Source of the DNA: a virus
Virus record (IMG/VR): IMGVR_UViG_3300044511_000233
Coordinates: 1-64,000 of that record
DNA: 64,000 nt
Reading direction: 5' to 3' (one strand)
Shown one piece after another: positions 1 to 37,081 of the stretch (positions within the stretch are counted from its first letter, which is position 1; the number at the start of each line of letters is the position of its first letter). The notes beneath the pieces are model-generated. The model made no database searches. It was given only the letters and a program-made list of their open reading frames with translations, and was not told where the DNA came from. The position numbers were made by a program, and so were the translations under genes.

Positions 1-285
1 TGAAGGCATTTGAATGCGAAGAGGGGTCTTACCGTCAGTATTGGATTTCAAATGGAAGAAAAACTGGAGCATCTGACGCGCATAAATCTCGATGTCGTTC
101 CTGACATGGTCCTGAACCGCAGCAAGCCGCTCAACAGTTTTCTCCTTAGCGATTCTATCAGCTCGATCCTGAACAGCATCAAGAATTAGCTGTTTAGCGG
201 CAATAGCCACTGTGGCAGGGTTTGATGAGCTATCAAAACGACCTGCCCTACGGTCAGTTGGACCAACTTTTATGACAATCTTCAT
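1..285 (-). CDS. Partial structural (neck/tail-completion region) protein, runs off the left edge
   Basis: ATG at 285 overlaps the HNH stop (TAATG). The frame MKIVIKVGPTDRRAG... stays open to base 1. It lies downstream of the head-closure genes. Confidence 0.55.
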   Translation of the reverse strand, partial: MKIVIKVGPTDRRAGRFDSSSNPATVAIAAKQLILDAVQDRADRIAKEKTVERLAAVQDHVRNDIEIYARQMLQFFFHLKSNTDGKTPLRIQMPS

Positions 286-13527: not shown

Positions 13528-14053
13528 AGTGGGATTGAGCTGCCTGTTTTCGAGCGGCTGTCGCTTCCTCTAAAGTATCATAGTATCCAACTATAACCTC
13601 TTTCCTGTTCTGATGAACCCTTACTCTATATTTGCGCATCTTCTTATGCCATGATACCCCTGTAACTCCTGTCGTATTATCTGATCGAATCCCCTGATTA
13701 ATAATGTTTTGAGACCGGGTTGCTGGTCGAAGGTTATTCCATTCATTACTTGATGAGTGACGATTCTTATGATCAATATCTTCAGTAGGCCATGATTTAG
13801 TCATTAGGACATGAGCAATAACATGCACATAAAAACTCATAACTTTATCGCCGATCGTCACTCGCGCATGACGATAGCCTTTTCCGGTAATACTACGAAT
13901 TTCTTTGCCAGAGTATTTTGAGTTGAACGTCCTCCAACCTCGATCGCTATTAAAGTGCTCTCGAGGCCTAACTTTCCAGGTCAGGCCCCCTGTCTCAGGA
14001 TCATAATCAAAACACTCATGGAGATACTCAGGGGTCGGCTGCTCTTTTTGCAT
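13502..14053 (-). CDS. HNH homing endonuclease (HNH-AP2)
   Basis: FDYDPETG, IDHKNR..NEWNNLR, NTTGVTGV. Confidence 0.88.
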   Translation of the reverse strand: MQKEQPTPEYLHECFDYDPETGGLTWKVRPREHFNSDRGWRTFNSKYSGKEIRSITGKGYRHARVTIGDKVMSFYVHVIAHVLMTKSWPTEDIDHKNRHSSSNEWNNLRPATRSQNIINQGIRSDNTTGVTGVSWHKKMRKYRVRVHQNRKEVIVGYYDTLEEATAARKQAAQSHYGEFANVA

Positions 14054-32914: not shown

Positions 32915-33373
32915 ATGGCAACTCATCAGAAGCCTAGGGTTGGATGTGCGATTATTTTGAAGGACAGCGGAGATCGGGTTCTTTTGGGGCGTCGTGCCAA
33001 AGAGCCATACTTCGGAGCGTGGGTATTGCCGGGTGGCGGCGTGGACCCATTCGAATCATATAGCGATACAGCTGTTCGCGAGGCGAAGGAGGAGCTTGGC
33101 GTCGACATCAAGGTTGAAGGACTTTTTGACGTGGTGGAGATCATCAATCCGCCATCCGAGCACCGGATTGTTATCTACGTCAACTGTCGCCAACTATCGG
33201 GCAGTATCCGGCCATCTTCCGATATTTCGGAGGCGAGATATTTCGACAAAAGTGAAGCTTGGGCCATCGTGCGTAATGGGTTGACCACGCCGACCGTGCG
33301 ATCAATATTGTGCTCCATATTTGACTTCGATGGTGGCTCGCAAAAGGCTGGGACGCTTCGGGCCGCCAGTTAG
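32915..33373 (+). CDS. NUDIX hydrolase (moron)
   Basis: Nudix box GGGVDPFESYSDTAVREAKEELG, with its own AT-rich upstream region. Confidence 0.92.
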   Translation: MATHQKPRVGCAIILKDSGDRVLLGRRAKEPYFGAWVLPGGGVDPFESYSDTAVREAKEELGVDIKVEGLFDVVEIINPPSEHRIVIYVNCRQLSGSIRPSSDISEARYFDKSEAWAIVRNGLTTPTVRSILCSIFDFDGGSQKAGTLRAAS

Positions 33374-34268
33374 AGTCCGTTTGAGAATGTCGTTCAATGA
33401 GCGATCCTTCGCAAGATGAGGCCGCCCATTGCGACGTGGATCATGGCTTTTGAGACGTCGATGCGCTTTTCATAGTCTCGCACGAGGCGCCGCCAGCGGG
33501 TCATCCAGCCGAAGGTTCGCTCGACGACCCAGCGTCGCGGCAGAACCTTGAAGCCCGGATCGGCGTCGATCCTTCGCACGATCTCTACGACGAACTCCTT
33601 GAACGCCGCCTTGTCCATGAGTTTTCTGCGATCATAGGCGCCGTCGGCGAAGAGATGTTTGACCCATGGCCAGCGCTTGCGGATGGCGTCGAGAATATGC
33701 TGCGCGCCCGCGGAGTCGGAAACATCCGCTGTCGTCAGATTGACCATGAGCAGCCGTCCGTCCGTATCCACTGCAATGTGGCGCTTGCGCCCTTTGATTT
33801 TCTTGCCGGCGTCGTAACCCCGCGCTCGCGCCGCCGGGGCTTTGACCGATTGGCTGTCGATGACGCCAGCCGAGGGGCTCGCCTCGCGGCCGGCGCGTTC
33901 CCGGTCAATCATCAGCGCCACGTCGTGGATGGTCTCGAACAGAAAGCGGCGCATGAAGCGGCGAAACCACCAGTAGACGGTTTGCCAGGGCGGGAAATCC
34001 TTGGGCAGCATACGCCAGCCACAGCCGGCGCGGGCGATGTAGCGGATGGCGTTCAAAACCTCGCGTGGGTCGACCGAGGGCCTGCGCCCTTTGCGCGCCG
34101 GCGAGGGCAGGAACGGCTCAACCCGCTCCCACTCCTCATCGGTCAAATCCGTCGGGTAACGTTTGGTTTTCTTCTCAATGGCGGCCATCTTGGCGCGATT
34201 CGCTCGGGTCCACATCCCGAGCTTGAATCACGACCCTCACTCCGTCGCAACCATTCTCAAACGGTCAC
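33373..34268 (-). mobile_element. IS5-family insertion sequence (IS1031-like), 896 bp
   Basis: 17-bp terminal IRs GAGTCCGTTTGAGAATG / GTGACCGTTTGAGAATG (2 mismatches) flanked by a TA duplication. Confidence 0.92.
33394..34215 (-). CDS. IS5 transposase
   Basis: YPTDLTDEEW, WRMLPKDFPPWQTVY, IDSQSVK, DGAY, RWVVERTFGW. Confidence 0.97.
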   Translation of the reverse strand: MWTRANRAKMAAIEKKTKRYPTDLTDEEWERVEPFLPSPARKGRRPSVDPREVLNAIRYIARAGCGWRMLPKDFPPWQTVYWWFRRFMRRFLFETIHDVALMIDRERAGREASPSAGVIDSQSVKAPAARARGYDAGKKIKGRKRHIAVDTDGRLLMVNLTTADVSDSAGAQHILDAIRKRWPWVKHLFADGAYDRRKLMDKAAFKEFVVEIVRRIDADPGFKVLPRRWVVERTFGWMTRWRRLVRDYEKRIDVSKAMIHVAMGGLILRRIAH

Positions 34269-34383
34269 TAAGATCAGAACTGTTGCTTCAACCCGCCGTG
34301 GTGTTCGACGACCGCGACCGGTCGGTTACCATGTGGCGATCGGAAGGCATTCGATGTTTGCAGGTGGCCCCGGGGAACTTTTG

Positions 34384-35149: not shown

Positions 35150-35512
35150 ATGCTGATTGATTGGGTGATAGGTATGACGAGTATAAGATTAGTTAGACTG
35201 TCGAAAATATATCATAAGCTGGGGGTTAGTAGAAAGGTAGTATATTATTGGGCCAGACATGGGTTGTTGCCTGGGGCCATTAATCACAACGGGGTTTGGT
35301 TGATGAATCTCGATGTGTTTAATGACTGGGTCTCACAGCAGACTCAACCTATTGAGGTAACCCCATGCTCTTTCAACGTAAGGACAGCCCATTCTGGCAT
35401 ACGAAACTCTCGAACGGAAAGCGGGTCTCGACCGGCATCCCCTGCAGTCGATCTCTTCGAGAAAGAGCTCTGCAGGCTGCAGCAGAAAAAGAACGAGAGC
35501 TGCAAGAGCTGA
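35150..35512 (+). CDS. xis: Excisionase-like HTH (MerR/HTH_17) protein
   Basis: KLGVSRKVVYYWARHGLLPG; overlaps the 5' end of int. Confidence 0.7.
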   Translation: MLIDWVIGMTSIRLVRLSKIYHKLGVSRKVVYYWARHGLLPGAINHNGVWLMNLDVFNDWVSQQTQPIEVTPCSFNVRTAHSGIRNSRTESGSRPASPAVDLFEKELCRLQQKKNESCKS

Positions 35513-36429
35513 TACAGGCGGCTAGGAGCCTGACGCTCAAACAGGCGACTACGTTATTTCTTCGCGACTCGGCAGATACGCTCAAAGCGTCGACGCTACA
35601 CCATTACGCGAAGAAATTGGCGGTCATCATTGATGTGATGAATTCGCCGACGATCGCCGAGATCAATCTCGAGTGGTTGAAGGGGTTTGTGCGTGAACGA
35701 CGCCGGCAGACGTCGGACATCCAGATCCGGCGCGAGATCACAGCCCTGTCTTCGCTCATGGAATATGCGATTGATCGGGAATTGGAGGGGGCGCCGGAGG
35801 TGAACCCTTGCCGGCTGTTCCGGAAGAAAGGGTTGAAGAAGCCCGTCAAGAAACCGCGGTGGTTGACGGTCGCACAGGTTCGGGCGCTGCTCCATGCGGC
35901 AGCGAGGCTGCCATCGATTATCTCACGGCGGTTTTGGGTCGCTTTCATCACGCTTGTCCTCGAGACCGGCCTTCGCCATGAGGAGGCGCTTGGGCTGCTG
36001 TGGGATGAAGTCGATCTCAGCCGGCGGGTGATCTTCCTGCCGGCTGATCGTGAGAAGGCTGGCCGCGGTCGGATCGTGCCTCTCTCCGACACAGCGATGG
36101 ACACACTCTTGCACGTTCCTCGAGACCCGCGCATCAATTACGTCTTCGTTAATCCGAAGACGCGGACCCGCTATAACTCGATCGGGAAGGGATGGGTTCA
36201 ATTGCGTATTAAGGCTGGGGTTCCTCATGCGAGAATTCATGATTTGCGTCATACGTTTGCGTCCTGGACCCGTCAGTCCGGAATGTCGCGCGAGGATCGA
36301 AAAGACGTCCTCGGGCACCTTGATGACACGACCCACGGAGGATACGCCAATGCGTCAATCGAGTCTCTGGTAGAGACTGTGAACAAGCACAGCCCAAGCA
36401 CATTGCTCTCACAGGAGCAGGAGTTGTAA
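35365..36429 (+). CDS. int: Tyrosine integrase
   Basis: ETGLR, K, HDLRH, LGH and Y catalytic residues. Confidence 0.96.
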   Translation: MLFQRKDSPFWHTKLSNGKRVSTGIPCSRSLRERALQAAAEKERELQELIQAARSLTLKQATTLFLRDSADTLKASTLHHYAKKLAVIIDVMNSPTIAEINLEWLKGFVRERRRQTSDIQIRREITALSSLMEYAIDRELEGAPEVNPCRLFRKKGLKKPVKKPRWLTVAQVRALLHAAARLPSIISRRFWVAFITLVLETGLRHEEALGLLWDEVDLSRRVIFLPADREKAGRGRIVPLSDTAMDTLLHVPRDPRINYVFVNPKTRTRYNSIGKGWVQLRIKAGVPHARIHDLRHTFASWTRQSGMSREDRKDVLGHLDDTTHGGYANASIESLVETVNKHSPSTLLSQEQEL

Positions 36430-36465
36430 GGTAGCTCACCGATGAAGAGTGAGGGAATTCAAAGA

Positions 36466-36504
36466 CGGGGTATGGCGCAGTCTGGTAGCGCGGAAGTTTT
36501 GGGT
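36466..36504 (+). other. attP core: 5' half of tRNA-Pro(UGG)
   Basis: CGGGGTA TG GCGC AGTCTGGTA GCGC G GAAGT TTTGGGT: 5' acceptor strand, D arm, 5' anticodon stem and loop (TGG). The 3' half is absent. Lies 37 bp after int. Confidence 0.85.
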
Positions 36505-36631
36505 TTTTCTGAACCTGCAACTCTAACCTCCTGAAATCTCACTTCCAACCTCATCGGCATCTTGGACTTTGTGGGTCCTGTGTGGGTGTTTTGTTCCACA
36601 CAGTTCCTGCACACACGCCGCGGGCCAGTCG

Positions 36632-37081
36632 ATGTCGCTTCACTTCGATGAAATTAAACGTCTCCTCATTGAGGAGAGTCTATCTCAATCTGAGATCGTA
36701 AAACGCTACTCTCACACGCTGTCGGCATGGCAGGTAAAGCGGCTTATTCAAGAAGCGTATGAGGACGTCAAAAAGACGCGTCCTGAGTTTCAGATGCGTC
36801 GCGCCCCCAGCGGTTTCAAACCCCTGGGTGCTACGAAAACGTTGAGTCAGATGCACCTAGCTATAGGTGTTAGGCTCAACAATCATCGGCGAGTTGAGAT
36901 GGATATGCAGCCGATGGAGTATTGCTCAAAGTTTAATTTTTCCAACCATATTAGGTTGAGAAAAATGGAGACTGGGCAATACGATTTCTCCTTATCTGAG
37001 ATGCAACGGATCTCGGAAATTGTTGGCATTCCAATGGAGGAGCTGGTGACACCATTTATCAGAAACGCATATGCTTGTTGA
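36632..37081 (+). CDS. XRE-type HTH regulator (repressor candidate)
   Basis: IGVRLNNHR...LRKMETGQYDFSLSEMQRISEIVG; adjacent to attP. Confidence 0.7.
   Translation: MSLHFDEIKRLLIEESLSQSEIVKRYSHTLSAWQVKRLIQEAYEDVKKTRPEFQMRRAPSGFKPLGATKTLSQMHLAIGVRLNNHRRVEMDMQPMEYCSKFNFSNHIRLRKMETGQYDFSLSEMQRISEIVGIPMEELVTPFIRNAYAC

What the first reader, a model, noticed from the sequence alone, without database searches (positions are those of the whole stretch)
36403..36504. attP carries the 5' half of tRNA-Pro(UGG), so the prophage may have to supply the promoter of a host tRNA
Seen: 37 bp after int is a 39-nt stretch matching tRNA nt 1-38 that stops exactly at the anticodon loop, with phage genes on both sides. 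Known: most tRNA-targeting integrases duplicate the 3' end so that the host promoter still drives the repaired tRNA. Inference: crossover anywhere in this core would leave the intact tRNA downstream of int, under phage control. A candidate promoter TTGCTC-N18-TAAGGT (36403-36432) sits in the 3' end of int, just after a GTCTCT-N3-AGAGAC palindrome (36363). This could tie supply of a probably essential tRNA to phage regulation and penalise decay of the prophage end.
Basis: partly seen in the sequence, partly recalled or inferred. Interest (0 to 1): 0.85.

Follow-up and report, generated by a model that had tools for sequence, protein, structure and literature searches.

The report
Front-half tRNA-Pro phage attachment site
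A complete 78.6-kb temperate phage of lake Methylocystis-type bacteria carries the first 38 bases of the host proline tRNA gene next to its integrase. Relatives already integrated in bacterial genomes show the phage repairs the gene from the front and cuts it off from its own promoter, which is a rare arrangement but one already described.

Summary
Window 36466-36504 is nt 1-38 of tRNA-Pro(UGG). It lies 36 nt after a tyrosine integrase, inside a circularly assembled free phage genome. In a Methylocystis genome (G374), a 23.75-kb deleted relative of this phage lies between a displaced 5' fragment, which keeps the native promoter, and the only intact tRNA-Pro(UGG) gene, which sits 37 nt after a 63%-identical int. 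Both host flanks are contiguous in relatives with an empty site. A second genome (G532) shows the same layout.

Two things link the phage to this genus. Lake-metagenome contigs that co-occur with the phage carry a matching empty tRNA site (1 mismatch), and the phage carries an IS that is also found in the genus.

The lysogen's tRNA must therefore be transcribed from phage DNA. The specific promoter proposed (TTGCTC-N18-TAAGGT) is unproven. It does not exceed chance under two promoter models. However, the tract shows no synonymous change against G374 (0/10 codons versus 52% elsewhere), and a TAnnnT sits at the int stop codon in three further related elements.

This is a new member of a known, uncommon kind (reversed target orientation, Zhao & Williams 2002). 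This scan has already found the same kind on other DNA.

The parts
35150..35512 (+). Putative excisionase-like HTH ORF. It overlaps the int start by 148 nt.
   Evidence: PF12728 HTH_17 at 26.2 bits, just under the cut-off of 27. phrog_66 excisionase/regulator, E 5.7e-4. The assignment is weak.
35365..36429 (+). Tyrosine integrase, 354 aa
   Evidence: PF00589 at 85.1 bits against a cut-off of 27.1. phrog_1 integrase, E 6e-53. R204, K231, H292, R295, H318 and Y327 are invariant in an 18-member alignment. The closest genome-encoded relatives are 63% (G374), 48%, 47% and 42% identical.
36363..36377 (.). Palindrome or hairpin inside the int 3' region
   Evidence: GTCTCT-GGT-AGAGAC. G374 and L125 have different sequences at the same codons that also pair (alignment). 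G713 has none. Function unknown.
36397..36432 (+). The last 10 int codons plus the stop codon, containing the candidate promoter TTGCTC-N18-TAAGGT (36403-36432)
   Evidence: Identical in G374. 0 of 10 identical-residue codons differ synonymously, against 108 of 209 gene-wide. A TAnnnT hexamer lies at the same column in L125 and G713. It is not significant by consensus scan or by host-derived PWM.
36430..36465 (+). 36-nt spacer between the int stop codon and tRNA position 1
   Evidence: Poorly conserved apart from a (A/T)TCAA(A/C)G motif just before the tRNA. No terminator was predicted on the + strand.
36466..36504 (+). tRNA-Pro(UGG) nt 1-38, the identity block of attP
   Evidence: Joined to the 3' half of a host gene, it is called as a normal tRNA-Pro(tgg).
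36498..36504 (.). Anticodon loop TTTGGGT, the inferred strand-exchange segment
   Evidence: Element/host identity ends at loop position 38 in the window and G521, at position 39 in G374, and 3 nt later in G532. The position of the crossover is inferred, not shown.
36578..36603 (.). Conserved inverted repeat CTGTGTGG-N10-CCACACAG in the right arm
   Evidence: It is also present after the displaced fragment in G374. No U-tract follows it, so it is not a canonical terminator.
36632..37081 (+). First right-arm gene. In a lysogen it would lie downstream of the native tRNA promoter.
   Evidence: Only sub-threshold HTH_3 (E 0.033). Homologues occupy the same place and direction after attL or attP in G374 (52%), L125 (35%) and G713 (36%).

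Best explanation
Window 36466-36504 is the core of the attP site of a temperate, roughly 78.6-kb Seuss/JWF-like siphophage. The phage integrates into the single tRNA-Pro(UGG) gene of Methylocystis-type (Beijerinckiaceae) bacteria with reversed polarity. The adjacent tyrosine integrase recombines attP with the tRNA gene, most likely within the 7-nt anticodon loop. After integration, the host promoter and host nt 1-38 are left as a dead fragment at attL, pointing into the prophage's right arm. The working tRNA at attR is a chimera of phage nt 1-38 and host nt 39-76, and it sits 36 nt downstream of int. Its transcription must therefore start in phage DNA. That start is either a promoter overlapping the last int codons and stop codon (36403-32; my estimate is about 40%), or read-through of int transcripts followed by RNase P processing (about 35%), or both. 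What is shown: the sequence anatomy, the integrated topology in relatives, the single-copy status of the tRNA, and the host link. What is inferred: the crossover position, integration by this particular phage, and the source of tRNA transcription.
For: (1) The record is the free circular form, and contigs span attP without a break in lake metagenomes.
(2) G374 is Methylocystis sp. ATCC 49242, judged by the source name and contig length of P0005. It has a 63%-identical int, then 37 nt, then an intact tRNA-Pro(UGG), then two tRNA-Arg genes. 23,750 bp upstream lies a copy of the first 39-40 nt only, preceded by host DNA and followed by homologues of window 36505 onward.
(3) Both host flanks are contiguous around an uninterrupted tRNA-Pro in many relatives, for example G453.
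(4) The island is a deleted relative of this phage. It keeps homologues of window 36.5-41.7 kb and 20.9-36.4 kb, in prophage order.
(5) G532 has a 42%-identical int ending 5 nt before the intact tRNA, with the 5' fragment on another contig.
(6) L125, a 73-kb viral contig with a 47%-identical int and the same flanking genes, has the 5' half only.
(7) G374 has one tRNA-Pro(UGG) plus GGG and CGG isoacceptors.
(8) Host link: metagenome contigs carry the intact tRNA with 1 mismatch and a G810-like upstream flank. The phage's IS5-family element has copies in 26 of 78 genomes of that genus, with ends 100% identical in G810.
(9) The chimeric tRNA is called as a normal tRNA.
(10) Evidence that these elements carry a promoter: G532's sequence upstream of the tRNA is 77% identical, in register, to the native promoter region (score 62 against a null maximum of 31). 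G521's island has a native-type promoter scoring 11 bits. The window tract shows no synonymous change.
Against: No attL/attR junction of this exact phage was seen. The four metagenomes laid show only attP and empty attB contigs, and only 1 of 78 genomes of the genus carries a related int. No exact 39/39 host match was found; the best is 38/39. The proposed promoter is at chance level under both promoter models. Its -35 is not kept in L125 or G713, which have CTTCTC. No RNA data were available.
Confidence: 0.85

Rival explanations
1. The topology is as above, but there is no dedicated promoter. In the lysogen, the tRNA is made only by read-through of xis/int transcripts, and RNase P releases it from the int mRNA 3' end. 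The conserved tract at the int stop codon would then serve another purpose.
For: No terminator is predicted between int and the tRNA. In G532 the int ORF ends 5 nt before the tRNA, so co-transcription there is almost unavoidable. The candidate promoter scores at chance level.
Against: A sole tRNA-Pro(UGG) needs steady expression, whereas int is usually weakly expressed in lysogens (general knowledge). G532 and G521 carry recognisable promoters upstream of the restored tRNA. There is no synonymous change over the last 10 int codons.
Confidence: 0.35
2. The invariant 36-nt tract (36397-36432) is a binding site for recombination proteins (an Int arm-type, Xis or host-factor site of the P arm) rather than a promoter. 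This is compatible with either source of tRNA transcription.
For: attP arms normally extend 100-200 bp from the core (general knowledge). The tract contains a tandem CAGGAG-CAGGAG. The Int N-terminus is conserved in the way an arm-binding domain would be.
Against: No repeated copy of the motif is conserved in the arms. The only repeat, CTCTCACA at 36709, is absent from G374. The same column holds a TAnnnT in diverged elements.
Confidence: 0.2
3. The half tRNA is a relic, picked up by imprecise excision or left from an ancestor. This phage no longer integrates there, or no longer integrates at all.
For: No integrated copy of this exact phage was found. The phage has a full replication module and lytic-type relatives.
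Against: int is intact with all catalytic residues. The half tRNA sits at the same place in three related elements, and it is exactly the island boundary in G374. A roughly 78-kb full-length prophage of the same lineage exists in G713.
Confidence: 0.05

Closest known systems
Integrative elements with reversed target-gene orientation, i.e. a displaced 5' tDNA fragment (Zhao & Williams 2002, J Bacteriol 184:859). This is cited as the rare 5'-distal case in PMC6563490, and the configuration is accepted by the Islander algorithm (PMC4383910).
   Same: The element carries the 5' rather than the 3' part of the tRNA gene. Integration displaces the 5' fragment upstream and regenerates the gene at the other junction. 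The element has to provide the expression signals.
   Different: Here the element is a complete, free 78.6-kb tailed-phage genome with its own DNA polymerase. int is co-directional with the restored tRNA and lies immediately upstream of it. I could not read the 2002 paper (it is not held), so a detailed comparison rests on its title and on statements in papers that cite it.
Conventional anticodon-loop tRNA-targeting phage integrases (Williams 2002 classification; examples recalled from memory: P22, HP1)
   Same: A tyrosine integrase whose identity block ends at the anticodon loop. The anticodon stem provides dyad symmetry in attB.
   Different: The identity block runs from the loop to the 5' end instead of the 3' end, so the host promoter is lost from the functional copy.
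Caulobacter phage Seuss, Achromobacter phage JWF, and Pseudoalteromonas phage KB12-38 (roughly 80-kb siphoviruses)
   Same: The large terminase is 42-44% identical over 90% of its length and the genome size is similar.
   Different: I did not check whether those phages have an int/attP module. This lineage does have one, and it occurs as prophages (G374 remnant, G713 full length).
Rhizobium phage 16-3, which integrates into a tRNA-Pro gene (recalled from memory, not checked here)
   Same: An alphaproteobacterial temperate phage that uses a proline tRNA gene as attB.
   Different: As I recall, 16-3 overlaps the 3' end of a tRNA-Pro(CGG) gene, which is the conventional polarity.

Membership tests
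Tyrosine recombinase / phage integrase (PF00589) | Catalytic-domain profile match above the curated cut-off | tested here: met
   85.1 bits against a cut-off of 27.1; phrog_1 E 6e-53
Tyrosine recombinase / phage integrase (PF00589) | Catalytic residues R-K-H-R-H/W-Y | tested here: met
   R204, K231, H292, R295, H318 and Y327 are invariant in alignment A1
tRNA-gene-targeting integrative element, anticodon-loop sublocation | The attP/attB identity block is bounded by the anticodon loop | tested here: met
   Identity ends at loop position 38-39 in the window, G374 and G521, and 3 nt later in G532
tRNA-gene-targeting integrative element, anticodon-loop sublocation | The identity block covers the 3' part of the gene (conventional polarity) | tested here: not met
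   The block is nt 1-38, and no 3' half exists in the record
Reversed-orientation tDNA element (5' fragment type) | The element-borne copy is the 5' portion of the tRNA gene | tested here: met
Reversed-orientation tDNA element (5' fragment type) | In the integrated state, the 5' fragment lies upstream with the native promoter and the intact gene lies at the far junction | tested here: met
   Shown for relatives G374 and G532. Not observed for this exact phage.
Reversed-orientation tDNA element (5' fragment type) | The element supplies a promoter for the restored gene | tested here: inconclusive
   The candidate is at chance level in two models. There is indirect support from synonymous-site and positional conservation. 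Promoters are clear in G532 and G521. A transcript 5'-end map is needed.

The most novel reading that the evidence does not exclude
Integration swaps promoters in both directions, and this is used for regulation. The strong native tRNA-Pro promoter left at attL reads through the dead 5' fragment into the first right-arm gene (36632-37081), a weak HTH protein kept in that position in all four relatives, so that gene would be expressed only when the phage is integrated. At the same time, the essential single-copy tRNA depends on a promoter written into the last int codons, and the int mRNA gains an RNase P-cleavable 3' end only in the lysogen. The result would be a recombination-operated lysogeny switch together with an 'addiction' of the host to the int-proximal prophage end. 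That addiction would explain why the decayed G374 remnant keeps an intact int.
Probability: 0.15. Interest if true: 0.65.

Novelty: new member of a known kind. Interest (0 to 1): 0.3.

Why it matters
This is a clean case, verified in natural integrants, of the rare mirror-image way of using a tRNA gene as a landing site. A free phage genome, an empty host site from the same lake samples, and a decayed integrated relative can all be laid side by side.

It shows that a host's only tRNA-Pro(UGG) gene can become dependent on prophage DNA for transcription. That dependence could stabilise prophage remnants.

It also gives a concrete experimental system, because Methylocystis sp. ATCC 49242 is cultivable. 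There one could map where such a tRNA is transcribed from.

Finally, it assigns a large, otherwise lytic-looking phage lineage to methanotroph hosts and shows that the lineage is temperate.

Tried and rejected
- The single genome-contig scan with the integrase found only relatives about 30% identical.
- The metagenome scan with the alignment used generic catalytic motifs and returned only distant integrases.
- Viral-contig scans for the 39-mer, for the 30-nt int-end tract, and for a degenerate int C-terminus pattern found nothing beyond L125.
- Rfam shows no tRNA or other family at the site, and nothing downstream of int in G713 or G514.
- The E. coli-type promoter scan found none in the window, L125 or G374. 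A PWM built from 28 native tRNA-Pro promoters scores the candidate at about 0 bits.
- No RNA holder was listed among the sequencing runs.
- The contigs laid from four lake runs showed no hybrid attL/attR junction of this phage.
- Arm-type repeats were sought; none is conserved.
- The right-arm hairpin is not a canonical terminator.
- The att core of the G713 prophage could not be resolved. There is only a weak 19-nt similarity, and the target is not a tRNA.
- Zhao & Williams 2002 and Williams 2002 are not held in the library, and three literature searches for further bacterial examples returned nothing usable.
I re-ran it deriving them from the files.
- No complex or structure prediction was needed.

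Full report
**Observation**

Window 36466-36504 reads as positions 1-38 of a bacterial tRNA-Pro(UGG), 39 nt long because of a 20a insertion. It contains the acceptor 5' strand CGGGGTA, a GCGC/GCGC D stem, the anticodon-stem 5' strand GAAGT, and the loop TTTGGGT. The tRNA likeness stops at loop position 38. ARAGORN finds no tRNA in the window or in the whole 78,750-bp record, and Rfam finds none either, as expected for half a gene.

The integrase ORF is 35365-36429 (PF00589, 85 bits). The spacer is therefore 36 nt.

**What the record is**

The record is an IMG/VR virus contig. Its first 126 bases recur at 78600-78725, and the remaining 25 bases are a 20/25 variant of bases 127-151. It is therefore a circular or terminally redundant free genome of about 78.6 kb, not a prophage cut out of a chromosome.

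It encodes a major head protein, portal, large terminase and tail fibres. It also encodes its own primase, helicase, DNA polymerase, ligase and an SbcC-like protein. The terminase is 42-44% identical to those of Caulobacter phage Seuss and Achromobacter phage JWF.

**Integrated relatives**

A protein search found integrase relatives named from Methylocystis, Beijerinckia and Rhodoblastus.

*G374.* Genome G374 has a contig length equal to that of the Methylocystis sp. ATCC 49242 record. In it, a 63%-identical int is followed after 37 nt by a complete tRNA-Pro(UGG) and then by two tRNA-Arg genes. A second copy of the first 39-40 nt only lies 23,750 bp upstream on the same strand. It is preceded by host DNA and followed by a homologue of window 36505 onward.

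Both outer flanks are contiguous around an uninterrupted tRNA-Pro gene in many related genomes, for example G453. G374 therefore carries a true insertion.

The inserted DNA is a deleted relative of the window phage. After the fragment come homologues of window 36.5-41.7 kb (the helicase is 73% identical). Next come homologues of 20.9-36.4 kb, ending with int. The structural genes and most replication genes are missing. This is exactly the gene order expected if a phage like this one recombined at the 39-nt core.

*G532.* This genome repeats the layout. A 42%-identical int has an ORF that stops 5 nt before the intact tRNA, and the 5' fragment lies on another contig.

*L125.* This 73-kb viral contig has a 47%-identical int and the same neighbouring genes. 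It carries the 5' half only, which is the attP form.

*G713.* This genome holds a roughly 78-kb full-length prophage of the same lineage, but at a site that is not a tRNA.

*G521.* An unrelated 46-kb island uses the same tRNA gene with the same reversed polarity.

*G663.* A 38%-identical int lies against the 3' end of a tRNA-Gly gene, which is the usual polarity.

**Host**

Four lake-water metagenomes hold the phage with an unbroken attP. They also hold separate, more abundant contigs that match only 36464-36504 with one mismatch. Their loose ends are a host-type upstream flank on one side and the tRNA 3' half (ACTTCAGGTCGCAGG...) on the other. These contigs are an empty attB.

The upstream flank resembles that of genome G810, which is in the same genus as G374. 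The tRNA of G810 differs from the phage copy only at D-loop position 16.

An independent link comes from the IS5-family element in the phage (33370-34271). It has copies in 26 of 78 genomes of that genus. Its ends are 100% identical at six contig ends of G810.

No hybrid attL/attR junction of this exact phage was seen.

**Crossover position**

Identity between element and host ends at loop position 38 (window, G521), position 39 (G374), or 3 nt further on (G532). This holds across two integrase lineages. The pattern fits strand exchange in the 7-nt anticodon loop, with the anticodon stem serving as the symmetric core in attB. This is an inference.

The phage 5' half joined to a host 3' half is called as a normal tRNA-Pro(tgg), with the same T6·G67 wobble pair as the host gene.

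**Consequence for tRNA expression**

G374 has exactly one tRNA-Pro(UGG) gene, plus GGG and CGG isoacceptors. The intact copy is the one behind int, 23.7 kb from its native promoter. Its transcription must therefore begin in element DNA.

**Is TTGCTC-N18-TAAGGT that promoter?**

Evidence against:
- The E. coli-type consensus scan finds nothing in the window, G374 or L125.
- Native tRNA-Pro promoters in this family are clear: TTGnnn-N17 with TGn-TAGCnn in 23 of 33 loci. A PWM built from them scores the candidate at about 0 bits, and 1.7 such sites are expected per 150 nt.
- The -35 hexamer is CTTCTC in L125 and G713.

Evidence for:
- Between the window and G374, 108 of 209 codons with identical residues differ synonymously. 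None of the last 10 codons does (P is about 6e-4 at that rate). The identity runs on through the stop codon and then collapses in the spacer.
- A TAnnnT hexamer sits at the same alignment column over the stop codon in the window and G374 (TAAGGT), L125 (TAGAGT) and G713 (TATATA, within TATATAAT).
- Related and unrelated elements at this site do carry promoters. In G532, positions -112 to -41 upstream of the tRNA, inside the int ORF, are 77% identical and in register with the native promoter region. This includes TTGCCG-N17-TATAAA (score 62 against a null maximum of 31). G521's island has a native-type promoter scoring 11 bits.

I therefore regard an embedded promoter as plausible (about 40%) and int read-through with RNase P processing as the main alternative (about 35%). 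The invariant tract could instead, or also, be a recombination-protein binding site.

**Comparison with what is known**

Mobile elements normally recombine with the 3'-distal part of tRNA genes. Use of the 5'-distal part is described as considerably less frequent, with Zhao & Williams 2002 as the bacterial reference (PMC6563490). The Islander pipeline explicitly accepts a 5' fragment upstream of the tDNA (PMC4383910). I could not read the 2002 paper itself.

Earlier follow-ups in this scan reached the same classification for half-tRNA attP sites on other DNA.

The present case is a well-supported new member of that kind. It is not a new mechanism.

**What remains open**

Three questions need transcript 5'-end mapping in the cultivable G374-type strain, together with an integration assay:
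- whether the promoter lies in the int stop-codon region;
- whether the native promoter left at attL drives the conserved first right-arm gene (36632-37081, which has only a sub-threshold HTH_3 match);
- whether dependence of an essential tRNA on the int-proximal end helps prophage remnants persist.

Noticed in passing
window 33370-34271: A complete IS5-family insertion sequence sits inside the phage genome: 20-nt inverted ends, and a DDE_Tnp_1/DUF4096 transposase at 33394-34215 on the minus strand. Copies occur in 26 of 78 genomes of the host genus. The ends are 100% identical at six contig ends of G810, which serves as a host marker.
   Followed up: partly
window 1-126 and record 78600-78750: The record's ends overlap by 126 identical bases. 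The last 25 bases are a 20/25 variant of bases 127-151. This indicates a circular assembly with strain microdiversity at the junction.
   Followed up: yes
window 36363-36377; same codons in G374 (L006) and L125: A short hairpin or palindrome in the int 3' coding region is kept at the same place with different, still complementary, sequences in three elements. It is absent in G713. Function unknown.
   Followed up: partly
window 36578-36603; L008 about 13585-13610 (minus strand): The inverted repeat CTGTGTGG-N10-CCACACAG, with GTTTTGTTCC in its loop, is conserved in the right arm of attP and after the displaced fragment in G374. It is not a canonical terminator and may be a protein-binding site.
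   Followed up: partly
L208 (G532:C144), about 110-40 nt upstream of tRNA-Pro: The C-terminal extension of this element's int ORF is homologous, in register, to the host's native tRNA-Pro promoter region at attL (71 nt, 77% identical). The element appears to have copied the promoter along with the gene's front half.
   Followed up: yes
L216/L217 (G521:C3:7278019-7324268): A 46-kb island with an unrelated integrase (30% identical, placed next to the displaced fragment and pointing toward it) uses the same tRNA-Pro(UGG) gene with the same reversed polarity. It carries a strong native-type promoter (TTGCCT-N17-TAGAAG) before the restored tRNA.
   Followed up: partly
L042/L126/L226/L227 (G713:C2, about 2788194-2866430): A roughly 78-kb full-length prophage of the same phage lineage (int 48% and DNA polymerase 57% identical) is integrated at a non-tRNA site. 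TATATAAT lies immediately after the int stop codon. Its att core was not resolved.
   Followed up: partly
L044 (G663:C63): A 38%-identical integrase lies against the 3' end of a tRNA-Gly(CCC) gene on the opposite strand, which is the conventional polarity. Both polarities therefore occur among moderately related integrases.
   Followed up: no
window 35150-35512 versus 35365: The putative xis-like ORF overlaps the int start by 148 nt in another frame. Either the overlap is unusually long or the ORF call is too long.
   Followed up: no
L214 (IMGVR_UViG_2770939601_000001): A provirus record begins just downstream of an intact tRNA-Pro(UGG) that keeps its native upstream flank. The same gene may therefore also be used with conventional 3' polarity by another element.
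   Followed up: no
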